DNA of 64,000 nt from Eledone cirrhosa (Eukaryota). The stretch is from contig OZ024742.1 of assembly GCA_964016885.1 (NCBI GenBank), positions 97,712,001 to 97,776,000 on the forward strand, given 5' to 3'. Made by a program: the position numbers and the translations under genes. The notes beneath the pieces are model-generated. The model was given only the letters and a program-made list of their open reading frames with translations. It searched no databases and was not told the origin of the DNA. This document shows, one piece after another, positions 1,476-45,570 of the stretch; the stretch's first letter is position 1; the number at the start of each line of letters is the position of its first letter.

Positions 1476-1810
<335 letters not shown>

Positions 1811-3300
1811 GTTATACTTGGGGAGAGTCATATTTGTGTAATATTGCCAGAATTAATAACCGAACACACTCACTGTTTGGTTGGTTTTTGCTTCTCGCTT
1901 CTGTGTCTTTTATATAGGTAATCTAATATTCTCGGTCCTCAATGTTGCCATTGACTGACCGGCGGTCAAAAATAATACAGATACAATATAGACATAAACA
2001 CATATATATAGTTTATCATAAATCTTTCGTTGCACATCTGCAACATCGTCAGTTATGCTATATTTTCCTCCTGTTGTATTGTATGTCTACGCCATTTTTA
2101 TTCAGTCTGTCTATATATTTATTTATTTATTTGCTTGTTTGTTTATTTTATTTTGTCTTCTTTGCGCATGCGTTTGCGTGTGTGTATAGTGTTTTGTTTG
2201 CTGTGTGATGGGTGACTAGTGTGTGTTTATGTGCTTGTTGTTATTGTGCTTGTGTATGTATTTATTTATTTATTTATTTATTTTATTTTATTTACTTATT
2301 TATACTTCTCTTAGGTCAGTGTTGTTTATTTGGGTTTTGTTGTTATTCCATTCATTCTTTCTGTTTAGCCTTGGTCTTCTAATTTCTATTTCACTGGCCT
2401 CTCTGATTTGCCTATCTGCTGGGTCATTTCTATGTTTAGATATTATTCTAATTTCTATGTTGTTTATGTTACCGTCATGTTGTTGACTAGCATGTTCGTA
2501 TCGTACTGACCCGTTTTTTTTGTCCTTTTAGTTCCCCCAGTGTTGGTCTATCCTTTCACCTATGCTACGAGCTGTCTCACCTATGTATGTTGTTGTCATG
2601 TTTCTGCAAGTACCCTCTGTACATTTTATGCTATAGACTACGTTTCTAGTTTTACAGTTTATCCGGGGGTTCACCTTACATATGATACATTTCCTATTGG
2701 TACAGTGGGTTTCTTAAAAGGGTAGGTTTTGCTGATCAGGGATTTTATGGTGGTTCCTGGCTTTTCTGCCACCTTTATTTTTAAGTGGGTCTTTCTCAGG
2801 GCCTTTCTACACTGGTTACCTAATTTCCCTCCAGGGGTAGCGTCCACAAACATGACACTCTGGTATCTCTGGTTGTCGTACCATGAGGTGGCTTTCCCTA
2901 TCTTATGTCTAGCCCTATCTAAGCTATTCCATGATTTGCTCCTGTATAATGGGCAAATTCCTTTCATGTCCAGTTCTATGAGGGTCTTATACTTCTCCAT
3001 GGCTCCTTCGTATACTCTGATTCTGTCTCTTTGATTGTAGCCAGAGAGCTGCATGCGGTTGATGAAGTGTTGGATGTGTCTTTCCATTTCTGTTGGGTCG
3101 CACATGCGGGACACATTCTTCATCACTCGTACCAAATCTGTGATCAGAATATTAAACTTAGCACTACTCGGCATTGCTGAGTTTTTGAGTATCAGGTATT
3201 TGGAGGCCATGGGTTTAGCATAGTGTGAGTGGAGAATTTGGGCTCTCTCGTCCATAGTGTTAATCCAGAGTTCTGTGTCTAATACAGGTAGTCTCTTGTT
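1811..3300 (-). mobile_element. Penelope-like element 3' part (RT thumb + GIY-YIG endonuclease, frameshifted) with 3' tail
   Basis: ORF 3255-2671 (HYAKPMASK..SAMP..RMQLSGY); after a frameshift the minus strand reads CIICK..CKTRNVVYSIKC..YIGETARSIGERIDQH; same family as 43655-44815. Confidence 0.88.
2017..2057 (-). ncRNA. Type I hammerhead ribozyme remnant (stem III collapsed)
   Basis: CAUAA CUGACGA U GUUGCA-GAUG-UGCAAC GAAA GAU UUAUG; stems I and II pair perfectly. Confidence 0.7.
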
Positions 3301-3315
3301 ATATGTATATATATA

Positions 3316-3950
3316 TAAACAATTAAATTAAAAATGTACATCTACATATGCATACTGAAATACTAGTGTGTATATGAATACACACACGTATACATATGTA
3401 GGTGTAACAAGTCTTTCACTGGTTGCTTTACTGTGAGCAACCCAGCTATTCTGTATGTAAACACACAGACAAACCGGTTTTTAGAGTCATACTGGTTTTC
3501 GGGGGAACACCTTCCCTCTATTCTCCAGAAAGCCAGACAAGGAATATTGAACTAGTTTCGTTGTTGTTACAACTCATCAGCAATATTTACCTATCTACCG
3601 GCCCTTCTGGAGAATTGTAAAAGCACATATCGTTATATGCTTTTTCTATGAAAATTAGTAGTGGGCAGACTAATTTGCATAGAGTATGAGTACGCACCAG
3701 TTCAGCGGAGACGATAAAAACAAATAACGAAACGAAATTAAATTTCGTTTCGTTTGTAACTCACTTTTGTATGACTGACGCTTAAACAATTAAGTTAAAA
3801 ATGTACATCCACATATGCATACTGAAATACTAGTGTGTATATGAATACACACACGTATACATATGTAGGTGTAACAAGTCTTTCACTGGTTGCTTTACTG
3901 TGAGCAACCCAGCTATTCTGTATGTAAACACACAGACAAACCGGTTTTTA
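3316..3950 (-). mobile_element. Non-coding terminally redundant element (467-bp unit + 168-bp direct repeat) with internal HHR; retrozyme-like
   Basis: 3316-3483 is repeated at 3783-3950 with 2 mismatches; TA repeats on both sides. Confidence 0.75.
3543..3587 (-). ncRNA. Minimal type I hammerhead ribozyme
   Basis: AAUAUUG CUGAUGA GUUGU-AACA-ACAAC GAAA CUAG UU CAAUAUU: 7-bp stem I, intact core, palindromic ACUAGU stem III, GUU site. Confidence 0.9.
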
Positions 3951-7198: not shown

Positions 7199-9350
<2,152 letters not shown>

Positions 9351-10703: not shown

Positions 10704-10957
10704 TTGCTGTATGTGTGTAAAGTATCCGTGCGTGGGATATCCCTGAGTAAATTTACTTGACTGTTAATTGTTTATTGATTGTTTGTTAATTAGGCAGGAA
10801 TATAGCATTATGTCTTTGTTAATCCTATGTGTTGCTGTATGTGTGTAAAGTATCCGAGCGTGGGATATCCCTGAGTAAATTTTGCTTGACTGTTAATTGT
10901 TTATTGATTGTTTGTTAATTAGGCAGGAATATATTATTATGTCTTTGTTAATCCTAT
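10704..10957. repeat. 2x ~128-bp tandem duplication
   Basis: TTGCTGTATGTGTGTAAAGTATCCG... starts at 10704 and again at 10832. Confidence 0.92.
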
Positions 10958-14775: not shown

Positions 14776-15335
14776 TGATGGTATCCAATGATGTTGACTT
14801 GTTCTTCTTTTTGGTAAATATCATCTTGGTTAAGAGAGTGGGACTGGCTTTGTGCAGTGCCTTTGCTCACTATAAAAGCTTCACGGCACAGGCATTGCTT
14901 TATATCTGGAGATCTCTCTGCACTTGTCGTCACAGGGTACCATGGGCCCAGCACTATGTGTCAATATTTGTCACAAGTGTAGTGTTTGTACCAGAGTTTT
15001 CAAGTTGCTGGTTGGACTAAAAAGTCACACTCGTTCAGCGCATCGGTAGGGGTTCTCCTATATGGATATAAAGTAGTGGCCGTACTCGAAAACGAGTTGG
15101 CAGCCACCATGTATATATATATATATGTATGTATGTATATATATGTATGTATGTATATATATATATGTATGTATGTATATATATGTATGTATGTATGTAT
15201 ATATATATATGTATGTATGTATATATATATATATGTATGTATGTATATATATATATATGTATGTATGTATATATATATATATGTATGTATGTATATATAT
15301 ATATATGTATGTATGTATGTATGTATATATATATG

Positions 15336-15366
<31 letters not shown>

Positions 15367-15383
15367 GTATGTATATATATATG

Positions 15384-15434
<51 letters not shown>

Positions 15435-15981
15435 GTATGTATATATATATGTATGTATGTATATATATATGTATGTATATATATATGTATGTATGTATAT
15501 ATATATGTATGTATGTATAGATATGTATGTATGTATGTATATATATGTATGTATGTATATATATATATGTATGTATGTACATATATATGTATGTATGTAT
15601 ATATATATGTATGTATTTATGTATGTATATATATATATATATATATGTATGTATATATATATATGTATGTATGTATATATATATATGTATGTATGTATGT
15701 ATATATATATATATATGTATGTATATATATATGTATGTATGTATGTATGTATATATATATATACATATGTATGTATGTATGTATATATATATATGTATGT
15801 ATGTATGTATATATATATGTATGTATGTATATATATATATGTATGTATGTATATATATATATGTATGTATGTATATATATATGTATGTATGTATATATAT
15901 ATATGTATGTATGTATATATATATATGTATGTATGTATATATATATATGTATGTATGTATATATATATGTATGTATGTATG

Positions 15982-16012
<31 letters not shown>

Positions 16013-16175
16013 GTATGTATATATATATGTATGTATATATATATGTATGTATGTATGTATATATATATGTATGTATGTATGTATATATATATGTATGTAT
16101 GTATAGATATGTATAGATATGTATGTATGTATATATATATATGTATGTATGTATATATATATGTATGTATTTATG

Positions 16176-16234
<59 letters not shown>

Positions 16235-16591
16235 GTATGTATATATATATATATATGTATGTATGTATATATATGTATGTATGTATATATATATATGTAT
16301 GTATGTATATATATATATGTATGTATGTATATATATATATGTATGTATGTATGTATATATATGTATGTATGTATGTATATATATATATGTATGTATGTAT
16401 GTATATATATATATGTATGTATGTATGTATATATATATATGTATGTATGTATATATATATATGTATGTATGTATGTATGTATATATATATATGTATGTAT
16501 GTATGTATGTATATGTATATATATATGTATGTATGTATGTATGTATATATGTATGTATGTATGTATATATATATGTATGTATGTATGTATG

Positions 16592-16681
<90 letters not shown>

Positions 16682-16800
16682 TATATATATATATATGTAT
16701 GTATGTATGTATGTATATAAATATATATATATGTATGTATGTATGTATGTATATAAATATATATGTATGTATGTATATATATATATATGTATGTATGTAT

Positions 16801-17650
16801 GTTTTCTCTTTCTCTTAATTTTGAGTATATTTTTTTGACCGGCCACCTTCCTGGTGGCAAGGTTGTAAAAGAAAAGAAATTGTCATCCTTTGAATCGCAA
16901 GAATGTTTTGCAAATTTTGAAGGTGCCAGCTATCGCAGCCATTTGTAGACTATGAATTAGGGAGCTGCGCTTTTTGTCCGCAAATCCAAGTTCGGTCATA
17001 CTTTGGTCCAAGCGGGTTGGTATATAACCCGTAGCACCAATAATGATGGGTATGAAGCTAAAGGTGTATCTTGGATACTGGATTTGTAAACTCCTCATCA
17101 ATGGTCCGTAGATGTCCTCCTTCTCCTCTATTTTTCTGACAACGTTTACATCAAGTGGGCAGCTGATCTCCACAATAGAACACGTTTTCAATGTGTGGTC
17201 CCAAACTACAATATCAGGCCGGTTGTGCTTTAATTTGGTGGCAGTTTTTATTTTCAGGTTCCACCAGTATTCCTTAGTGCCATCTGTCTCAATATATTCT
17301 TCCTCGTTTGTTGTTAATTTTGTTTTCCGAAGTGCGTTCCAGATGGTTCTAGCCATCCCATCGTGTCTCATGGGGAGGTAGTAGCGAGATGACATTCTTT
17401 CGCAGTTGGCAACAATGTGGTTTACATCCTCGATCTTTGTTTTACATAGCCTACATTTATTGGCAGCTGCTGGCCCTCCTCTTTTGTGCAGCAGATATTT
17501 GGTAGGGAGTTCTTGTTCCTGTATTGCATAGAGATATCCCTCAAGGTGTGATGTCATAAACTTGTCGGAACTCCATGCCAGGCTTTTTGAGTGGTTTATC
17601 CCCTCTATGGTCTGTGTTTTACGCCTCAAGTATCCATGCACAACTTTTTC
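16801..17650 (-). mobile_element. Dong/R4 non-LTR retrotransposon 3' fragment (CCHC knuckle + RLE endonuclease), copy 1
   Basis: ORF 17641-16883: [40 protein letters not shown]; 3' UTR hairpin GCCACC-AGGAA-GGTGGC. Confidence 0.9.
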
Positions 17651-17665
17651 TGTGTATGTATATAA

Positions 17666-17700
<35 letters not shown>

Positions 17701-18020
17701 TGTATATATATATATGTATGTATGTATGTATGTATATATATATGTATGTATGTATGTATGTATATATATATATGTATGTATGTATATATATATATGTATG
17801 TATGTATGTATGTATATATATGTATGTATGTATATATATATATGTATCTATGTATGTATGTATATATATATGTATGTATGTATGTATATATATATGTATG
17901 TCTGTATGTATATATATATGTATGTATGTATATATATATATATGTATGTATGTATATATATATATATGTATGTATGTATATATATATATATGTATGTATG
18001 TATGTATGTATATATATATG

Positions 18021-18051
<31 letters not shown>

Positions 18052-18068
18052 GTATGTATATATATATG

Positions 18069-18119
<51 letters not shown>

Positions 18120-18666
18120 GTATGTATATATATATGTATGTATGTATATATATATGTATGTATATATATATGTATGTATGTATATATATATGTATGTATG
18201 TATAGATATGTATGTATGTATGTATATATATGTATGTATGTATATATATATATGTATGTATGTACATATATATGTATGTATGTATATATATATGTATGTA
18301 TTTATGTATGTATATATATATATATATATATGTATGTATATATATATATGTATGTATGTATATATATATATGTATGTATGTATGTATATATATATATATA
18401 TGTATGTATATATATATGTATGTATGTATGTATGTATATATATATATACATATGTATGTATGTATGTATATATATATATGTATGTATGTATGTATATATA
18501 TATGTATGTATGTATATATATATATGTATGTATGTATATATATATATGTATGTATGTATATATATATGTATGTATGTATATATATATATGTATGTATGTA
18601 TATATATATATGTATGTATGTATATATATATATGTATGTATGTATATATATATGTATGTATGTATG

Positions 18667-18697
<31 letters not shown>

Positions 18698-18860
18698 GTA
18701 TGTATATATATATGTATGTATATATATATGTATGTATGTATGTATATATATATGTATGTATGTATGTATATATATATGTATGTATGTATAGATATGTATA
18801 GATATGTATGTATGTATATATATATATGTATGTATGTATATATATATGTATGTATTTATG

Positions 18861-18925
<65 letters not shown>

Positions 18926-19278
18926 GTATGTATATATATATATATATGTATGTATGTATATATATGTATGTATGTATATATATATATGTATGTATGTATA
19001 TATATATATGTATGTATGTATATATATATATGTATGTATGTATGTATATATATGTATGTATGTATGTATATATATATATGTATGTATGTATGTATATATA
19101 TATATGTATGTATGTATATATATATATGTATGTATGTATATATATATATGTATGTATGTATGTATGTATATATATATATGTATGTATGTATGTATGTATA
19201 TGTATATATATATGTATGTATGTATGTATGTATATATGTATGTATGTATGTATATATATATGTATGTATGTATGTATG

Positions 19279-19368
<90 letters not shown>

Positions 19369-19487
19369 TATATATATATATATGTATGTATGTATGTATG
19401 TATATAAATATATATATATGTATGTATGTATGTATGTATATAAATATATATGTATGTATGTATATATATATATATGTATGTATGTAT

Positions 19488-20337
19488 GTTTTCTCTTTCT
19501 CTTAATTTTGAGTATATTTTTTTGACCGGCCACCTTCCTGGTGGCAAGGTTGTAAAAGAAAAGAAATTGTCATCCTTTGAATCGCAAGAATGTTTTGCAA
19601 ATTTTGAAGGTGCCAGCTATCGCAGCCATTTGTAGACTATGAATTAGGGAGCTGCGCTTTTTGTCCGCAAATCCAAGTTCGGTCATACTTTGGTCCAAGC
19701 GGGTTGGTATATAACCCGTAGCACCAATAATGATGGGTATGAAGCTAAAGGTGTATCTTGGATACTGGATTTGTAAACTCCTCATCAATGGTCCGTAGAT
19801 GTCCTCCTTCTCCTCTATTTTTCTGACAACGTTTACATCAAGTGGGCAGCTGATCTCCACAATAGAACACGTTTTCAATGTGTGGTCCCAAACTACAATA
19901 TCAGGCCGGTTGTGCTTTAATTTGGTGGCAGTTTTTATTTTCAGGTTCCACCAGTATTCCTTAGTGCCATCTGTCTCAATATATTCTTCCTCGTTTGTTG
20001 TTAATTTTGTTTTCCGAAGTGCGTTCCAGATGGTTCTAGCCATCCCATCGTGTCTCATGGGGAGGTAGTAGCGAGATGACATTCTTTCGCAGTTGGCAAC
20101 AATGTGGTTTACATCCTCGATCTTTGTTTTACATAGCCTACATTTATTGGCAGCTGCTGGCCCTCCTCTTTTGTGCAGCAGATATTTGGTAGGGAGTTCT
20201 TGTTCCTGTATTGCATAGAGATATCCCTCAAGGTGTGATGTCATAAACTTGTCGGAACTCCATGCCAGGCTTTTTGAGTGGTTTATCCCCTCTATGGTCT
20301 GTGTTTTACGCCTCAAGTATCCATGCACAACTTTTTC
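19488..20337 (-). mobile_element. Dong/R4 3' fragment, copy 2
   Basis: ORF 20328-19570 translates identically to copy 1. Confidence 0.9.
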
Positions 20338-20352
20338 TGTGTATGTATATAA

Positions 20353-20387
<35 letters not shown>

Positions 20388-20711
20388 TGTATGTATATAT
20401 ATATATGTATGTATGTATGTATGTATATATATATGTATGTATGTATGTATGTATATATATATATGTATGTATGTATATATATATATGTATGTATGTATGT
20501 ATGTATATATATGTATGTATGTATATATATATATGTATCTATGTATGTATGTATATATATATGTATGTATGTATGTATATATATATGTATGTCTGTATGT
20601 ATATATATATGTATGTATGTATATATATATATATGTATGTATGTATATATATATATATGTATGTATGTATATATATATATATGTATGTATGTATGTATGT
20701 ATATATATATG

Positions 20712-20742
<31 letters not shown>

Positions 20743-20759
20743 GTATGTATATATATATG

Positions 20760-20810
<51 letters not shown>

Positions 20811-21355
20811 GTATGTATATATATATGTATGTATGTATATATATATGTATGTATATATATATGTATGTATGTATATATATATGTATGTATGTATAGATAT
20901 GTATGTATGTATATATATGTATGTATGTATATATATATATGTATGTATGTACATATATATGTATGTATGTATATATATATGTATGTATTTATGTATGTAT
21001 ATATATATATATATATATGTATGTATATATATATATGTATGTATGTATATATATATATATGTATGTATGTATGTATATATATATATATATGTATGTATAT
21101 ATATATGTATGTATGTATGTATGTATATATATATATACATATGTATGTATGTATGTATATATATATATGTATGTATGTATGTATATATATATGTATGTAT
21201 GTATATATATATATGTATGTATGTATATATATATATGTATGTATGTATATATATATGTATGTATGTATATATATATATGTATGTATGTATATATATATAT
21301 GTATGTATGTATATATATATATGTATGTATGTATATATATATGTATGTATGTATG

Positions 21356-21386
<31 letters not shown>

Positions 21387-21549
21387 GTATGTATATATAT
21401 ATGTATGTATATATATATGTATGTATGTATGTATATATATATGTATGTATGTATGTATATATATATGTATGTATGTATAGATATGTATAGATATGTATGT
21501 ATGTATATATATATATGTATGTATGTATATATATATGTATGTATTTATG

Positions 21550-21624
<75 letters not shown>

Positions 21625-21985
21625 GTATGTATATATATATATATATGTATGTATGTATATATATGTATGTATGTATATATATATATGTATGTATGTATAT
21701 ATATATATGTATGTATGTATATATATATATGTATGTATGTATGTATATATATGTATGTATGTATGTATATATATATATGTATGTATGTATGTATATATAT
21801 ATATGTATGTATGTATGTATATATATATATGTATGTATGTATGTATATATATATATGTATGTATGTATGTATGTATATATATATATGTATGTATGTATGT
21901 ATGTATATGTATATATATATGTATGTATGTATGTATGTATATATGTATGTATGTATGTATATATATATGTATGTATGTATGTATG

Positions 21986-22075
<90 letters not shown>

Positions 22076-22194
22076 TATATATATATATATGTATGTATGT
22101 ATGTATGTATATAAATATATATATATGTATGTATGTATGTATGTATATAAATATATATGTATGTATGTATATATATATATATGTATGTATGTAT

Positions 22195-23034
22195 GTTTTC
22201 TCTTTCTCTTAATTTTGAGTATATTTTTTTGACCGGCCACCTTCCTGGTGGCAAGGTTGTAAAAGAAAAGAAATTGTCATCCTTTGAATCGCAAGAATGT
22301 TTTGCAAATTTTGAAGGTGCCAGCTATCGCAGCCATTTGTAGACTATGAATTAGGGAGCTGCGCTTTTTGTCCGCAAATCCAAGTTCGGTCATACTTTGG
22401 TCCAAGCGGGTTGGTATATAACCCGTAGCACCAATAATGATGGGTATGAAGCTAAAGGTGTATCTTGGATACTGGATTTGTAAACTCCTCATCAATGGTC
22501 CGTAGATGTCCTCCTTCTCCTCTATTTTTCTGACAACGTTTACATCAAGTGGGCAGCTGATCTCCACAATAGAACACGTTTTCAATGTGTGGTCCCAAAC
22601 TACAATATCAGGCCGGTTGTGCTTTAATTTGGTGGCAGTTTTTATTTTCAGGTTCCACCAGTATTCCATCTGTCTCAATATATTCTTCCTCGTTTGTTGT
22701 TAATTTTGTTTTCCGAAGTGCGTTCCAGATGGTTCTAGCCATCCCATCGTGTCTCATGGGGAGGTAGTAGCGAGATGACATTCTTTCGCAGTTGGCAACA
22801 ATGTGGTTTACATCCTCGATCTTTGTTTTACATAGCCTACATTTATTGGCAGCTGCTGGCCCTCCTTTTGTGCAGCAGATATTTGGTAGGGAGTTCTTGT
22901 TCCTGTATTGCATAGAGATATCCCTCAAGGTGTGATGTCATAAACTTGTCGGAACTCCATGCCAGGCTTTTTGAGTGGTTTATCCCCTCTATGGTCTGTG
23001 TTTTACGCCTCAAGTATCCATGCACAACTTTTTC
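22195..23034 (-). mobile_element. Dong/R4 3' fragment, copy 3 (8-nt and 2-nt deletions)
   Basis: Lacks TTAGTGCC near 22667 and 2 nt near 22865; the ORF is split. Confidence 0.9.
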
Positions 23035-23049
23035 TGTGTATGTATATAA

Positions 23050-23084
<35 letters not shown>

Positions 23085-23352
23085 TGTATATATATATATG
23101 TATGTATGTATGTATATATATATATGTATGTATGTATGTATGTATATATATATGTATGTATGTATGTATGTATATATATATATGTATGTATGTATATATA
23201 TATATGTATGTATGTATGTATGTATATATATGTATGTATGTATATATATATATGTATGTATGTATGTATGTATATATATATGTATGTATGTATGTATATA
23301 TATATATATGTATGTCTGTATGTATATATATATGTATGTATGTATATATATA

Positions 23353-26110
23353 TCATCATCATCATCATCATCAACGTTTAACGTCCGTGTTCCACGCTTG
23401 CATGGGTTTGGACGGGGGTAGTCCCACTTGAGGCAAGAGTGATTGTCTTGCTCGCATAGGACTGTCTGGCAGGTTTTCTACAGTTGGATGCCCTTCCTAA
23501 CACCAACCACATTTACAGTGTGGGTCTGGGAGGTTTTTACCGTGTTGCCTACACGGCCACATTACAGCGTGGACTGTGTGTTTTTTGTCGTGACACCTAC
23601 ACGATCTCATTTGTTTCGGCCTCGATGGCGCGGCACCAACATAACTTTACATAGAACGGGGTGGTGTGGATGGGGTGGGGGTGGTGGTGGTGGGACGGGG
23701 TGTATTTTGTTAGAGATGCCTACTGGCTGGAGTAGGTTTTACTATATATTTAGGTAAGGCGGGTCTTCTCTGTTACTGAGTACCGCCAAAGGTCTCGGTC
23801 CAGTGACATTGTCTTGGAGAGGTGTAAGTGTGTGATGTCGGAGTTTATCAGCTCGTCCCAGGTTTTTCTAGGTCTGCCTATTCCGTGACTACCGTCTATC
23901 TTTATTGCCCTGCACTTTGTTATACAGCTATCGACTTTCATGCGCATCACGTGTCCATACCAACGTAGCCTTCTCTCGAGTAAACAACATCTGATCCCTC
24001 TTATCTCTAATTTTTTCCTTAGCTCGTTTATGCTTTGCCGTTCACGTATATTACTGTTACACATCCAGCGGAGCATGCAAGCTTCGTTCCTCTCTAGTCT
24101 GCGTATATCCTCTGCACACAATGCCCAGGTCTCACTGCCATGCAGCATTGCTGTTCGTATGCAGGCATCGTACAACCTGCCTTTCATTTTTAGTGAGAAC
24201 CCTTTAGCAGCTAATAGTGGTATAAGCTCTCTGAACTTTTTCCAACCAGTTCTGACTCTAGCTACAGTACTTTCAGAGCACCCTCCCCCACTGCTGATTT
24301 TATCGCCCAGGTAACGGAAGCTGTCCACTATTTCTATAGAACCCTCTGCGCAATTGAAAGAGCTAGTATTTATGGGCACTTGCTGCTACTTATTGCACCA
24401 GAGCACCGGCCTCATGTAAAATCTATGTTCTTAGTTAGCTTACCTGTGATCCCACTACATCTTTTATGCACCCATACTTTGCATTTAGGACATAAAATAG
24501 AGTTTCTACCTACGCCTTTCCTACACACCGAGCACGACCATTTCCCAGAAGGGACCGCCGCCTTGTTTTCTTTCCTACAAACTAGTACTTTGGTCTTAGC
24601 CAGGTTAATTTTAAGTCCTTTTGACTCTAGGCCGTGCTTCCATGTTTGGAATTTCTTCTCTAGCTCGGCCATTGATTCCGCTATGAGTGTCAGGTCGTCT
24701 GCGTATAGGAGTTCCCATGGGCAGCCTGTCTTGAACTCCTCTGTTATAGCCTGAAGGGCAATAATAAATAGTAGTGGGCTGAGAACAGAGCCCTGATGGA
24801 CGCCAACTTTTACGCTAAACTCTTCACTATATTCGTTGTTAATTCTAACCTTGCTGACTGTTTCTTTATACATGGCTTGTATAGCCCTCACAAGCCATTC
24901 GTCAACGCCTAGTTTTCTAAGAGCCCACCAGATAATGGAGCGGGGGACTCTGTCGAAGGCTTTCTCCAAGTCGACAAAAGCTAAGTAGAGGGGTTTACCT
25001 TTAGCTAGGTACTTCTCCTGTAGTTGTCGTACTATGAAAAGAGCGTCTGTGGTACTTTTGCCTGACACAAACCCGAACTGCATTTCATCTAGGTCAATTC
25101 TCTCTCTGATTAGTTGCGCTATTACTTTTTCCGTGACCTTCATGACCTGGTCGATTAATTTAATGCCTCTATAGTTACTCCTATCTAGGGCGTCTCCTTT
25201 ACCCTTATAACAGTTAACGATGATGCTGCTATGCCAGTCCTTCGGAACAACCCCATTCTGTACGACTTGGTTAACTATGCGGGTGACCATGGTGTGTCCC
25301 ACCGTGCCAGATGCCTTCAGCATCTCAGCAACTATTTCCGAAGGCCCAGCCGCCTTACCCGTCTTCATATCCTTGATTGCCTTACTTATTATACTCCCCT
25401 CGACTAACACTGCTGGTCCCTCTATTGGGTCGATATGGGGGAGACTGCCTTTCTCCCATTTATTCTCCTCATTTAGTAGCCTTTCATAGTGACACTTCCA
25501 AGCTACCTTCTTATCAGCGTCGGTGATGGCAAGTGTGCCATCGTCGTTTAGTACACACTTCTCCCCGACAATATCACGGTTTTCCTTGACGCATTGCCTA
25601 GCAATCCTGAACACCTCACGTTTTTGGTCATCGCGTTGTAGAACATGCTTGAACTTTCTTTCCTCAGCTTCCCTTCTTGCTAAGTACACTTGTCTCCTAG
25701 CTTCCCTCCTGGCCACTTGATAGTCCTCTCTACTTCCCCCATCCCGCCATACTTTCCAAGCCTGCTTTTTGGCCTTAATTGACCCCTCCACCTTACTGTT
25801 CCACCACCATGTTACTCTCCTCCTGCCTACAGGCCTGCTCCAGCCATAGACTTCGTCTGTCGCCAACAGCAGGTTTGCTTTCAGAAATTCCCACTCTCCC
25901 TCTATATTGTCCGACTCTAAATGTTCTTCCTTACTGTCGAAAGCATCAAGTAATATGCTTTGAAATTTATTCCTGGCTGTGGGGTCCTTTAGCTTCCATA
26001 TTTTCCTCCTGAGGATAGTCCTCTTCTGTTGTCGAGTACGTCTCGTCCTGACTATGAGGTCGCTAATTATCAGTCTATGTTGGGAGGTGCATTCTTCATG
26101 GGGGAGGGAT
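23353..26110 (-). mobile_element. RTE-clade LINE, 5'-truncated, with PHD finger inside RT and (TGA)n tail
   Basis: [58 protein letters not shown]; TGT>TGA stop at 24412-24414 plus a 1-nt frameshift. Confidence 0.95.
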
Positions 26111-42100: not shown

Positions 42101-42766
42101 TGGAACTTGCGGACTTTCCGGACAAGAGACCATGACACTATGTTGATACTATGGAGGACATTTGTCCTAAGCCGCCTGGGCTATTGCTCCCAATTATGGT
42201 CACCCTATAGTGTCAAACTAGCCACGGAGCTTGAGGCAATACAACGAAGCTACACCAAGAGGATTGCCACGATGAAGGAGATAAGCTACTGGAAGAGGCT
42301 AAAAGAACTGAACCTCTACTCCTTGGCACGTAGACGGGAGAGATACACAGTGATCTAATGTTGAAAATCCTGGAGGGACTAGCACCAAACTTTGGTATTG
42401 GGAGCTGGACCAATCGTCGAACAGGACGTCACAGTGTGGTGCCAAAGGTCTTGTCTTCCACATCTAGAATAAGGAGCAGATATTGCAATAGCCTGGGATT
42501 CAAGGGCCCTCTACTCTTCAACATGCTGCCGAGGGATCTGAGAGATCTGCATGGTGTAGGGGTGGATGTCTCCAAAAAATATCTCGATACCTTGCTATCC
42601 AGGATCCCGGATGAGCCCACAGCAAGGCGCAAGGGAAACCTAAGGGCAGCAACAACACACTCCCTATTACACCAGTGGCCAACAAATACAGGCTGGAAAT
42701 AAAATGTGTAGCAACAAGGGCGGTACCCCAGCATGGCCTCAGCTGGATGGCTGGAACAGGTAAAAA

Positions 42767-42768
<2 letters not shown>
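39175..42768 (+). mobile_element. Second CR1-group LINE, degenerate (ORF1 3' part, APE, RT)
   Basis: CKFFRNGTCWHGETRMGCRFTHP; LLNVRGL, LTETHL, YRPP, LGDFN, SDHN; [30 protein letters not shown]; SRLGYCSQLWSP; several stops and frameshifts. Confidence 0.92.
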
Positions 42769-42806
<38 letters not shown>

Positions 42807-42953
42807 GTGTAGAAGTAAACACAGTAAACACGTGTCTAAAATTACGAGGGCAGATTACACCACAAATGTTATATATCATTCAACCTGAATTATATGGGAT
42901 TTTACAAGATTTCTTACAAGATTTCTCATACATACCATATCAATAACCATTTC

Positions 42954-43045
42954 ATCTCCTGGACAGACTAAAGTTTTAATCTATTTCGCCCTGAACGAAT
43001 CATGTTTGTAACAAGTAATCCGTAGGCATTTCGTCAGCAGGAGAT
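42954..43045 (-). ncRNA. Type I hammerhead ribozyme with full stem III
   Basis: AUCUCCUG CUGACGA AAU GCC..ACGGAUUA..UGAUUCGU..GGC GAAA UAGAUUAA-AACU-UUAGUCUG UC CAGGAGAU. Confidence 0.85.
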
Positions 43046-43281
43046 AAGACTAAATGTTACATAACACCCATAACAATAAACTCACTAAAGCTGAGCATTA
43101 TAATATTAATATGTGTAGAAGTAAACACAGTAAACCCGTGTCTAAAATTACGAAGGTAGATTACACCACAAATGTTATATATCATTCAACCTGAATCATA
43201 TGGGATTTTACAAGATTTCTTACAAGATAATTTTAGACACGGGTTTACTGTGTTTACTTCTACATATATTAATATTATAAT

Positions 43282-43471
43282 TGTTTCTACTATTGGCACA
43301 AGGCCAGCAATTACCCAGTACATTACTGGTACTTTATTTTATCGACCCCGTAAGGATGAAAGGCAAAGTTAACCTTGGCGGGATTTGAAATCAGAATGGC
43401 AAGGGCTGTAACTCTATGCGTCAAAGCATGGCGTCCGATCCTCTACCGATACTGGCAATCCACCGCCCTTA
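43282..43471 (-). mobile_element. tRNA-derived SINE with Meta-like central domain and 16-bp TSD
   Basis: B-box-like GATTTCAAATCCC; TTTGCCTTTCATCCTTACGGGGTCGATAAAATAAAGTACC; TSD ATATTAATATTATAAT at 43266-43281 and 43472-43487. Confidence 0.85.
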
Positions 43472-43654
43472 ATATTAATATTATAATGCTCAGTATTTAT
43501 ACTTTGAGCATGTTAATTGCAGGGTATCTATATGAGTTATTAACTCTATATTTTATTTGTATTCCGGCTCCTTATCTGTTGAGTTTATAAAAATGAGTGT
43601 AAATAGGCTATTATTTCTAGCATAACCACTCGCACTGCATATGACTTTCAACGC

Positions 43655-44815
43655 ACGAGGTGCAACCCCAAAGAACTAGAGAGACACATACAACACTTCA
43701 TCCACCGTATGCAGTTCTCTGGTTACAATCAGAGAGATAAAATCAGAGTATATAGAGAGGCCAGAACCAAATGGGAAAAAACGGTAAATAATGATACAAA
43801 TGGGACCTGCCCCTTGTATAGTATCAAATTTTGGAATAGAATAGAAAGAACTAGGAATAAGGTTAATAGAATAAACTCATGGTATGATAGCAATAAATAC
43901 CAGAGTGTAATGTTCATCAATACAACCCCTAGAGGTGAATTAGCTTACAAATTTAGAAGGGACCTAGATAAACATAAACTTAATATTAAGATAGTAGAAA
44001 GACCAGGTTCCTCCATAAAAACACTTATTAGCAATACATACCCTTTTCAAAGACCTCCCTGTATAGATAAGAAATGCATAATCTGTAAACTAAGCCCCCA
44101 AATTAACTGTAAAACTAGAAATGTAGTATATAGCATAAGATGTACTGAAGGACAATGTAAAGATAAGAATATAGTGTACATAGGTGAGACAGCTCGTAGT
44201 ATAGGAGAACGGTTAAATGAACACTGGCGAGAACTTCAAGATTAAAAAGAATCATTAATATTCCACCAACATGCTAAAATAGAACATAAGGGCAAATTAG
44301 AGAACATAGAAATAAAAATAGGATCTACACACAGAAAAGACGCAATGTTTAGACAAATCACAGCGGCAATAAACATAAATGAACTTCAACCAAAATTAAA
44401 TAGAAAACATGAATGGAATAGCAACATCACAACTTACAATTAAGGACAAAATGAAAACACACACACACATAGAACAAACAACCAACCAGTAACATGTAAA
44501 TAAACAAGTAAATAAACAAATATAAACACACAGACACCTGGATGTAACACATGCGCAAACTAAGCACACAACACACACAAAAACAAGATGGCGTAGGACA
44601 GAACAAAGGAGAGGCACAAAAACAAAGAAAATAATCCCAGTCACTGAAGAGGTCACATAACGTGTGACGAAAGAACTTTGACAATATATGAACACCATTC
44701 CGGTTATGGAACCAACCAACCAACCGGAAATTTATAAATTTAATTTATAATAAATTGGAGTGAAAGCAGCTGGTTCCTGTGTTTCTTATTGCAACATGAC
44801 CCTCCCAAAGCATAA
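43655..44815 (+). mobile_element. PLE 3' part (RT thumb + GIY-YIG) with tail
   Basis: ORF 43709-44245: CIDKKCIICK..VVYSIRC..YIGETARSIGERLNEH; the frame continues past the stop to LNRKHEW. Confidence 0.9.
44640..44682 (+). ncRNA. Minimal type I HHR in PLE tail
   Basis: GUCA CUGAAGA G GUCACAU-AAC-GUGUGAC GAAA GAAC UU UGAC; stem III is one change from the palindrome AGUACU. Confidence 0.75.
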
Positions 44816-44889
44816 CAATATATATATATTATATATATATATTTATATATATATATATATATATATTATATATTATATATATATATATA

Positions 44890-45570
44890 TCATCATCATC
44901 ATCATCACCGTTTTACGTCCGTTCTTCCACGCTAGCATGGGTTAGACGGGTTGTCCTGTTGTGGGCAGTGTCTGGTCGGCTGACCATGCCTTGCTCATAC
45001 AGGAACTGATTTGGCTTGATTTCTACAGCTGGATGCCCTCCCTAACACCAACCTCATTTACAGTGAGTGCTGGGTGCTTTTTCGTGGCACCTACACGTCC
45101 ACTTTACAGTGTGGGCTGGGTGCTTTTTTGCCGTGGCAACTCCACGACCACCTTGCAGTGGGGGGTGTGGGGGCATATTGTCTATATGCTTCAGCTTGTA
45201 TCCATGGGAGGTCGGGTACTCTGTATTACTGCATGACGCCAGAGGTCACGGTCGTGTGTCATCGCCTTTCAGAGGTGTAATTCGGTAAGGTCGGCTTTTA
45301 TCACCTCATCTTGGGGCTCCCCACACCGCGGTTTCCATCGACTTCTAGTGCTCTGCACCTTTTTATGCAGCTGTCATCCTTCATACACATCACATGTCCA
45401 CACCAACACAACCGCCTCTCCTGCACACAGCATTTGATTCCTCTTATGCTCAGTCTCTCTCTCAATTCATTTATGCTTTGCCGTTCGCGTATATTACTAT
45501 TACACATCCATCGGAGCATGCAGGCTTCGTTTCTTTCTAATCTACGTAAGTCTTCCACCTTCAGCGCCCA
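44890..45570 (-). mobile_element. RTE 3' fragment
   Basis: [27 protein letters not shown]; CGGACGTAAAA..(TGA)n tail. Confidence 0.88.

What the first reader, a model, noticed from the sequence alone, without database searches (positions are those of the whole stretch)
42803..43493. Second, apparently unrelated retrozyme-like element: 306-nt unit, full-stem-III hammerhead, inverted 5' end
Seen: 120-bp direct repeats 306 bp apart enclose an HHR (43045-42954) with an 8-bp stem I, CUGACGA/GAAA core, GUC site, 9-bp stem III and an unusual 3-nt AAU insert before a long stem II. The 5' end of the minus-strand element folds back as an inverted copy of 43091-43150, later split by a SINE with a 16-bp TSD. 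Established: partial tandem plus inverted terminal repeats are typical of PLE integration. Inference: a monomer-competent ribozyme RNA of circRNA size mobilised in trans by PLE proteins. I see no similarity to the 467-nt unit, which would imply several independent families.
Basis: partly seen in the sequence, partly recalled or inferred. Interest (0 to 1): 0.82.

Follow-up and report, generated by a model that had tools for sequence, protein, structure and literature searches.

The report
Hammerhead repeat inserted Penelope-style in octopod
A 306-base non-coding repeat carrying an unusual self-cutting hammerhead RNA motif was copied into this octopus-like genome with the marks that Penelope-type jumping genes leave, so it is probably a new variant of the known 'retrozyme' parasites, although this single copy could not make a circular RNA on its own.

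Summary
There are 126-bp repeats 306 bp apart and a type I hammerhead (stem I 10 bp, 3-nt insert after A9, stem III 9 bp); 300 shuffles gave no such motif. An inverted arm is split by a SINE with a 16-bp TSD. New here: an 8-bp TSD (42798-42805, 43494-43501) brackets the whole element. It is one insertion of 1.38 units plus a 60-nt inverted arm with an 18-21-nt tail, placed at an AT-rich end beside a truncated Neptune-type PLE whose 3' UTR is unrelated. The unit has no ORF, folds well (z -4.3) and has relatives in a related octopod sample. Read variants mostly keep the stems (4 of 5 in stems I and III), which is not significant. Corrections: the locus has one hammerhead, so it cannot release a circle. 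The 'long stem II' is not kept in the window's register in other copies. A stable helix III is common in invertebrate retrozymes, and a 1-nt insert at this position is a known PLE trait; only the 3-nt length and the 9-bp stem III look unreported. Verdict: a PLE-mobilised, retrozyme-like, non-autonomous element, a new variant of a known kind. Cleavage and circles are untested.

The parts
42798..42805 (+). Left copy of the 8-bp target-site duplication of the whole element, at the end of a (TA)n tract
   Evidence: it explains the mismatch at 42802 between the repeats
42806..42922 (-). 3'-terminal repeat of the full unit; first reverse-transcription start site at about 42803-42806
   Evidence: start site inferred. 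An X5 contig's match also begins at the equivalent place, 43103
42861..42885 (-). 3' strand of a predicted long helix (about 24 bp) that extends stem I
   Evidence: duplex -18.5 kcal/mol, reached by 2 of 1000 shuffled flanks
42952..43047 (-). Type I hammerhead: stem I 10 bp, CUGACGA, 3-nt insert, stem II, GAAA, 9-bp stem III, GUC; predicted cut 42962/42961
43028..43030 (-). 3-nt insert between A9 and G10.1
   Evidence: no indel or substitution listed here (substitution table truncated)
43048..43072 (-). Strand 5' of stem I with two predicted partners: 42885-42861 (long helix) or 43020-43002 (17-bp alternative helix with the stem II region)
43091..43111 (-). Tail (18-21 nt) between the two inferred start sites; present in the internal junction and at the end of the inverted arm
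   Evidence: PLE tail concept from PMC8557442 and PMC11167929
43103..43228 (-). Upstream, 5'-truncated partial copy (the pLTR-like repeat)
43228..43281 (+). Inverted arm, first part (copy of 43097-43150), 1-nt overlap at the inversion junction
   Evidence: junction covered by an X4 contig
43282..43471 (-). High-copy SINE inserted later, with a 16-bp duplication at 43266-43281 and 43472-43487
   Evidence: very high read depth. tRNA origin is recalled, not shown (ARAGORN 0 hits)
43488..43493 (+). Last 6 nt of the inverted arm (copy of 43091-43096); second outward-facing 3' end
43494..43501 (+). Right copy of the 8-bp target-site duplication
43494..43650 (-). Older repeat that was the insertion target; its end resembles the Neptune 3' termini (weak)
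   Evidence: depth; p 0.007 and 0.066 against the two Neptune ends, 15 pairs tested
43655..44817 (+). Neighbouring 5'-truncated Neptune-type PLE (RT end, C-x4-C-x2-C linker, GIY-YIG with stops, 3' UTR with its own minimal hammerhead at 44640-44682); context, not part of the element

Best explanation
A solo genomic copy of a short, non-coding, hammerhead-bearing non-autonomous retroelement with a 306-nt unit, copied in trans by an endonuclease-bearing Penelope-like element, most likely a Neptune. SHOWN in the DNA: one insertion bracketed by an 8-bp TSD at an AT-rich site; two outward-facing 3' ends starting 18-21 nt apart in the unit; the left cDNA runs 423 nt (1.38 units) through an intact hammerhead; the right cDNA is 60 nt and inverted; a SINE came later. 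INFERRED: a source locus with tandem units is transcribed; the hammerhead (9-bp stem III, no dimer needed) cuts it into 306-nt monomers; stem I and a long helix hold their ends together for ligation. The PLE protein cuts both strands of an AT-rich target and starts reverse transcription at two internal sites. It reads across the cleavage site, which needs a periodic template (a circle or an uncut multimer). This copy has one hammerhead and private weakening changes such as U at 15.2, so it is a dead-end product.
For: Anatomy. PMC8969392 (passage) says a partial tandem follows a full-length PLE insertion, so full length here is 306 bp. The unit has no ORF (longest stop-to-stop 42 aa sense, 77 aa antisense). 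Inverted 5' copies, tails and microsatellite bias are PLE traits (PMC8557442 passages). Cutting and extending both strands at AT-rich DNA from two internal start sites was shown for an anole PLE (PMC11167929 main text). Multi-copy family: in run X1, 8 to 13 contigs carry the differences at 42960, 42974, 42996, 43002 and 43069, and 28 carry the one at 43154. In raw reads of X7, depth of 78-85 in one read direction runs from 42993 to 43147 with a dip to 45 in 43086-43116, and 62 molecules end at 43149. I read this as a differently mutated copy with the same hammerhead-to-repeat junction (inferred from depth). Structure: 42858-43075 folds at z -4.27, 0 of 200 shuffles as stable; the predicted circle keeps stems I, II and most of III. 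With alleles of other copies the hammerhead fold is itself the minimum-energy fold, and the A15.1-U16.1 pair probability rises from 0.32 to 0.79. One pair shows three compatible forms, U-A, U-G and C-G (43039/42960). Size (306 nt), GC (33%) and a TSD over 4 bp fit non-LTR retrozymes (PMC7229834). Neptune-type PLEs lie in the same window.
Against: One hammerhead only; no locus with two was seen, and no genome was available. No sequence link to either Neptune 3' UTR or terminus (scores at shuffle level), so the partner PLE is unidentified. Covariation is weak: 4 of 5 paired-site changes in stems I and III keep pairing, where a single random transition would do so 58% of the time; only 40 of 166 difference rows were shown and none are phased. 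In the window's own stem II register, 43002 breaks a pair in both runs and 42996 breaks one in X1; the register that fits all alleles was chosen after seeing them. Whole-circle stability is modest (z -2.0, 2 of 100). The tail is shorter than the 30-40 nt reported. In the anole PLE, uncut RNA was the main template and hammerhead mutants still inserted. Eight of nine Xenopus retrozyme dimers did not cleave in vitro. The X7 junction differs by about 14 nt, and that locus could be the orthologue rather than an independent copy.
Confidence: 0.55

Rival explanations
1. Non-autonomous and PLE-mobilised, but copied from an uncut linear RNA with a fixed 5' end near 43090. The partial tandem is made by a template jump, no circle exists, and the hammerhead is slow, protein-assisted or a passenger.
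For: The inverted arm ends exactly at 43091, so the internal copy could also start there. The X7 depth dip at 43086-43116 fits a junction that varies between two start sites. The anole PLE uses uncut RNA and its hammerhead needs protein. A competing 17-bp helix between 43067-43048 and 43020-43002 lowers predicted hammerhead folding in short transcripts with other copies' alleles (stem I probability 0.06-0.61 until 42860 is made). The 3-nt insert may impair catalysis (untested).
Against: The strands on either side of the cut are held by stem I plus a long helix, as expected of a monomer that is re-ligated. A 9-bp stem III and the canonical C15.2-G16.2 in other copies suggest selection for activity.
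Confidence: 0.25
2. The unit is only the 3' UTR/pLTR of an autonomous PLE family not present in this window. A 285-nt 5'-truncated piece and a second truncated piece were joined at insertion, so 306 is a locus accident.
For: All the insertion marks are those of autonomous PLEs. An insert at position 9/10.1 is a PLE-HHR trait. Many Xenopus retrozyme families are homologous to pLTRs (24 of 57 families to 22 TEs, 21 of them PLEs). The joint and loose-end tables were filled by the SINE, so what lies 5' of 43090 in other copies was not seen.
Against: No similarity to the two Neptune 3' UTRs, which do resemble each other (score 41 against a shuffle maximum of 35). Metazoan pLTR hammerheads are minimal, with little or no helix III, as are both Neptune ones here. 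X7 depth suggests the same junction in a copy with different private changes.
Confidence: 0.15
3. A LINE-mobilised SINE-like element, or a DNA-level duplication and inversion of an older repeat, with the PLE-like look arising by accident.
For: An 8-bp TSD also fits LINE endonucleases, and the left flank is the tail of an RT-bearing LINE.
Against: Both ends are internal sites of the unit and face outward inside one TSD. There is no poly(A) tail and no Pol III B box in the unit. The two repeat copies each carry about 2 private changes, as expected if they were identical at insertion.
Confidence: 0.05

Closest known systems
Metazoan non-LTR retrozymes (Cervera & de la Pena 2020, PMC7229834; review PMC7761336; Li, Clavereau & Pollet 2026, bioRxiv 10.64898/2026.07.22.740005)
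   Same: Type I hammerhead in a non-coding, low-GC unit of about 300 nt; TSD longer than 4 bp; highly self-paired predicted monomer; PLEs in the same genome; solo 'monomer' copies are a described class.
   Different: One hammerhead at this locus. Stem III of 9 bp, a 3-nt insert and an uninterrupted stem I with no internal loop for the usual loop 1-loop 2 contact. The passages I read of these papers do not describe inverted arms or tails on retrozyme copies, and none names a cephalopod.
pLTR and minimal hammerheads of EN+ Penelope-like elements, Neptune clade (PMC4209133, PMC8557442, PMC11167929)
   Same: Partial tandem, inverted 5'-truncated copy, tail between two start sites, AT/microsatellite target, unpaired nucleotide(s) between 9 and 10.1, G10.1-C11.1.
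   Different: No ORF; full-length unit of 306 bp; long non-palindromic stem III; insert of 3 nt, not 1; tail 18-21 nt, not 30-40; no sequence similarity to the Neptune UTRs in the window.
Large-helix-III type I hammerheads of fungal and protist PLEs (PMC4209133)
   Same: Large helix III, no recognisable loop-loop contact; the Serpula example cleaves as a monomer.
   Different: Those lie in telomere-associated EN-deficient PLEs of fungi and protists; this one is in an animal non-coding unit.

Membership tests
Type I hammerhead ribozyme | Conserved core (CUGANGA, GAAA, UH) with three helices, open stem I | tested here: met
   with a 3-nt insert. Rfam models do not reach threshold
Type I hammerhead ribozyme | Site-specific self-cleavage | not testable with these tools
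   needs an in vitro assay
Type I hammerhead ribozyme | Compensatory variation among copies | tested here: inconclusive
   4 of 5 paired-site changes in stems I/III keep pairing (chance 0.58 each); 0 of 10 listed changes hit the core; table truncated
Non-LTR retrozyme | Non-coding unit of about 150-400 nt, GC below 50%, type I HHR | tested here: met
   306 nt, GC 0.33, longest stop-to-stop 42 aa sense
Non-LTR retrozyme | Two or more tandem units each with a hammerhead (criterion for an active copy in the 2026 preprint), at this locus | tested here: not met
   one hammerhead, 1.38 units; the locus fits that preprint's solo monomer class
Non-LTR retrozyme | Tandem copies with two or more hammerheads elsewhere in the genome | not testable with these tools
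   no genome held; cannot show multimers
Non-LTR retrozyme | Expressed as a unit-length circular RNA | not testable with these tools
   no RNA run was available to lay
Non-LTR retrozyme | Multi-copy, with TSD longer than 4 bp when present | tested here: met
   8-13 variant contigs over several hammerhead positions in X1; 8-bp TSD
Autonomous EN+ PLE (pLTR of one) | RT plus GIY-YIG ORF between the repeats | tested here: not met
   no ORF
Autonomous EN+ PLE (pLTR of one) | Sequence identity to the 3' UTR of a PLE | tested here: inconclusive
   not met for the 2 Neptune UTRs in the window; other families could not be searched
PLE-type integration | Partial tandem, inverted 5'-truncated copy, tail, AT-rich target | tested here: met
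   tail 18-21 nt rather than 30-40
Pol III SINE with hammerhead (Sm-alpha type) | Internal Pol III promoter boxes | tested here: inconclusive
   no B box with up to 1 mismatch in the unit, but the same kind of scan also missed one in the SINE

The most novel reading that the evidence does not exclude
An undescribed hammerhead subtype (3-nt insert at 9/10.1, 9-bp stem III) whose activity is gated by a switch: the strand 5' of stem I first pairs with the stem II region and is later captured by a segment of the terminal repeat. It sits in a circular-RNA parasite whose genomic copies record rolling-circle reverse transcription by a Neptune PLE from two internal start sites. Such a family would give direct footprint evidence for the PLE-mobilises-retrozyme hypothesis and a minimal 306-nt template for PLE biochemistry.
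Probability: 0.2. Interest if true: 0.65.

Novelty: new variant of a known kind. Interest (0 to 1): 0.38.

Why it matters
Which enzyme mobilises animal retrozymes is still argued from co-occurrence and pLTR homology (PMC7229834 discussion; 2026 preprint). This locus shows the full PLE insertion signature on a unit with no ORF, inside one TSD, and names two candidate start sites. That makes an in vitro test with a purified PLE protein straightforward. The hammerhead variant is missed by Rfam, so similar families may be overlooked. The class itself is known and this is one decayed copy, so the gain is incremental.

Tried and rejected
No genome is held, so copies could not be aligned and no covariance model was built. 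Rfam: 0 hits at gathering score in the whole window; no hammerhead family among 5 matches at E up to 10 in 42700-44900. Pattern scan of metagenome contigs: 120 loci returned from 28 of 64 parts scanned; none resembles the unit by blastn, and 1 has a 3-bp stem II only, so I treat them as chance. Viral contigs: 0 matches. Sequencing runs: no RNA holder listed; 4 of the 9 listed runs were laid. X4 and X5 do not cover the hammerhead, and the SINE filled the joint and loose-end tables. Rejected: that the unit is the pLTR of the adjacent Neptune or related to the 467-nt unit, the gap repeat or the 129-bp tandem (all at shuffle level). A 7-bp pseudoknot alone between the tip of stem II and the 5' flank is not significant (P 0.07). 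The idea that the unit and the adjacent PLE co-inserted was dropped once the 8-bp TSD showed a separate insertion. Literature searches for a multi-nucleotide insert at 9/10.1 and for cephalopod retrozymes or hammerheads found no description. Luense et al. 2017, the paper most likely to list PLE hammerhead variants, is not held. The supplement of PMC7229834 was unreadable and bioRxiv supplements are closed; any of these may already show this variant. Earlier scan notes by sequence, place and a second word set returned nothing.

Full report
Setting. The window is AT-rich, microsatellite-filled animal DNA (GC 33%). A PLE fragment next to the finding is 59% identical to an 803-aa Octopus vulgaris protein, so I take the host to be an octopod (inference). 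No genome is held. Evidence from other copies comes only from one read-laying run.

Observation. Direct repeats of 126 nt, 96% identical, lie 306 bp apart. A minus-strand type I hammerhead spans 43047-42952: stem I up to 10 bp, CUGACGA, a 3-nt insert, G10.1-C11.1, GAAA, a 9-bp stem III and GUC. It is not chance: 1 such motif in window 36000-64000 against 0 in 300 shuffles. The inverted arm 43228-43281 matches 43097-43150 at 53 of 54 and resumes for 6 nt after a SINE with a 16-bp duplication. The unit is unrelated to the 467-nt unit. Rfam misses the ribozyme.

An 8-bp duplication flanks the whole structure (42798-42805 and 43494-43501). It explains the single mismatch at the left end of the repeat. 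By a crude count, about 0.2% of positions in 36000-64000 start with a comparable 8-mer. So 42806-43493 is one insertion with two outward-facing 3' ends. These correspond to two sites 18-21 nt apart in the unit (uncertain through shared AT letters), which gives the inverted arm a tail. The target was the AT-rich end of an older repeat (43494 to about 43650), whose terminus weakly resembles the two Neptune termini in the window (p 0.007 and 0.066, 15 pairs tested). Beyond it lies a 5'-truncated PLE with a C-x4-C-x2-C linker and a GIY-YIG domain. That linker is the Neptune type according to passages of PMC8557442. It has its own minimal hammerhead with a 1-nt insert and a 3' UTR unrelated to the unit. 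Inferred order: LINE with (TA)n tail, Neptune pieces, this element, SINE.

Other copies. Of 9 listed runs, 4 were laid. X1 and X7 (organism A) cover the whole unit. In X1, 8 to 13 contigs carry the differences at 42960, 42974, 42996, 43002 and 43069, so the unit is a multi-copy family; summed depth is not a copy number. An X5 contig matches 43103-43220, beginning at the unit's 3' end. An X4 contig covers the inversion and left SINE junctions with no differences. Of 166 difference rows 40 were shown, 10 of them in the hammerhead. None hits the core or the insert, and none of the 4 listed indels is in the hammerhead. In stems I and III, fixed beforehand, 4 of 5 paired-site changes keep pairing: U-A to U-G or C-G, C-G to U-G, and U-G to the canonical C15.2-G16.2; a distal stem I pair breaks in X7. 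A random transition keeps pairing 58% of the time, so this is only suggestive. In stem II the window's register is broken at 43002 in both runs and at 42996 in X1, and is compensated at 42996/43022 in X7. A shifted register fits all alleles, but it was found after the fact. The secure part of stem II is the proximal 4 bp. X7 depth suggests reads that run from 43149 to about 42990, across the unit junction, in a copy with its own private changes; a dip at 43086-43116 implies about 14 nt differ there. This is my reading of binned depth, not a listed joint, and that locus could be the orthologue.

RNA structure. The stretch 42858-43075 folds at z -4.27. The strand just 5' of stem I pairs over about 24 bp with 42885-42861 in the terminal repeat (-18.5 kcal/mol, 2 of 1000 shuffled flanks; the partner segment was picked from the fold). 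In a cut monomer this would hold the two ends together. The predicted 306-nt circle keeps the ribozyme folded, with overall z -2.0. The same strand can instead form a 17-bp helix with 43020-43002 (-14.9 kcal/mol, 17 of 1000; -17.0 and 2 of 1000 with X1 alleles, where 43002 turns a G-U into G-C). With other copies' alleles this lowers predicted hammerhead folding until 42860 is transcribed; in the window copy it does not. The allele sets are unphased and incomplete, so a switch is a hypothesis only.

Mechanism. A partial tandem marks a full-length PLE insertion (PMC8969392, passage). Here full length is 306 bp with no ORF, so the element is non-autonomous. Inverted 5' copies, tails and microsatellite targets are PLE traits. 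A purified anole PLE cuts and extends both strands at AT-rich DNA and starts at two internal RNA sites (PMC11167929, main text read), which accounts for both ends here. The left cDNA crossed the cleavage site, so its template was a circle, an uncut multimer or an uncut linear RNA followed by a jump. I give 0.55 to a periodic template (retrozyme-like), 0.25 to an uncut linear template with a jump, 0.15 to pLTR pieces of an unsampled autonomous PLE and 0.05 to non-PLE origins. Non-autonomy with PLE mobilisation thus has about 0.8. With one hammerhead, this locus cannot release a monomer.

Comparison. It works like a metazoan non-LTR retrozyme (PMC7229834: passages and sections 14 and 17; PMC7761336: passages; 2026 preprint: abstract to discussion, parts 1-3 of 5). 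I do not file it as an active member, because the two-hammerhead criterion fails at this locus and circles are untested; it fits the preprint's solo monomer class. Stable helix III and monomer cleavage are common in invertebrate retrozymes. A single nucleotide between 9 and 10.1 is conserved in PLE hammerheads, and large helix III variants occur in fungal and protist PLEs (PMC4209133, results and discussion). Pseudoknots between stems I and II are predicted in about 40% of hammerheads (PMC3088659, passages). I found no report of a 3-nt insert at this position or of cephalopod retrozymes. Luense et al. 2017 and two sets of supplements could not be read and may hold such cases. Passages of PMC6765202, PMC6155905, PMC544870 and PMC2632901 were also seen; the first notes that PLEs tend to insert into or beside earlier PLE copies. 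Earlier scan notes describe PLE-type footprints on non-coding tandem units in other genomes (unchecked), so the footprint is not unique to this locus.

Verdict. A real, well-formed feature, best read as a solo, decaying copy of a PLE-mobilised, retrozyme-like family with a variant hammerhead. New variant of a known kind; interest 0.38.

Noticed in passing
window 3316-3950 (-): The 467-nt unit has 168-bp repeats and a minimal-stem-III hammerhead at 3587-3543 whose stem I is also extended by a long rod (z -5.2). It too sits between (TA)n tracts beside a truncated Neptune PLE: same design as the 306-nt unit, unrelated sequence.
   Followed up: partly
window 1810-3327 (-) and 43655-44817 (+): Two 5'-truncated Neptune-type PLEs, about 70% identical in DNA, each with a minimal hammerhead bearing a 1-nt insert (2056 region; 44640-44682) and a shared 3' terminus before (TA)n.
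   Followed up: partly
window 43494-43650: An unidentified repeat with elevated read depth; its minus-strand end resembles the Neptune termini, and one AT-rich stretch weakly matches the first Neptune's 3' UTR (score 35 against a shuffle maximum of 25). Possibly the 3' end of a third Neptune family, head to head with the adjacent PLE.
   Followed up: partly
window 43485-43511: A 7-bp inverted match spans the right junction of the element and the target repeat; reads of other copies of the target differ at 43510, which shortens it to 5 bp. Chance or a priming aid.
   Followed up: no
window 7832-9330 (+): An interrupted ORF that by eye looks like another PLE (Penelope/Poseidon-like RT end and endonuclease motifs; recalled, Pfam gave no hit).
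   Followed up: no
window 10704-10957: A two-copy 129-bp tandem (96%) with no hammerhead found by the window scan and no similarity to the 306-nt unit.
   Followed up: partly
window 15109-23353: Three near-identical tandem copies of about 2.7 kb (97-98%) of a LINE 3' fragment embedded in microsatellite; recent duplication or assembly artefact.
   Followed up: no
window 43241-43271: Read depth in X1 rises here and 27 contigs carry a difference at 43257, hinting at a more abundant repeat that shares this terminal stretch.
   Followed up: no
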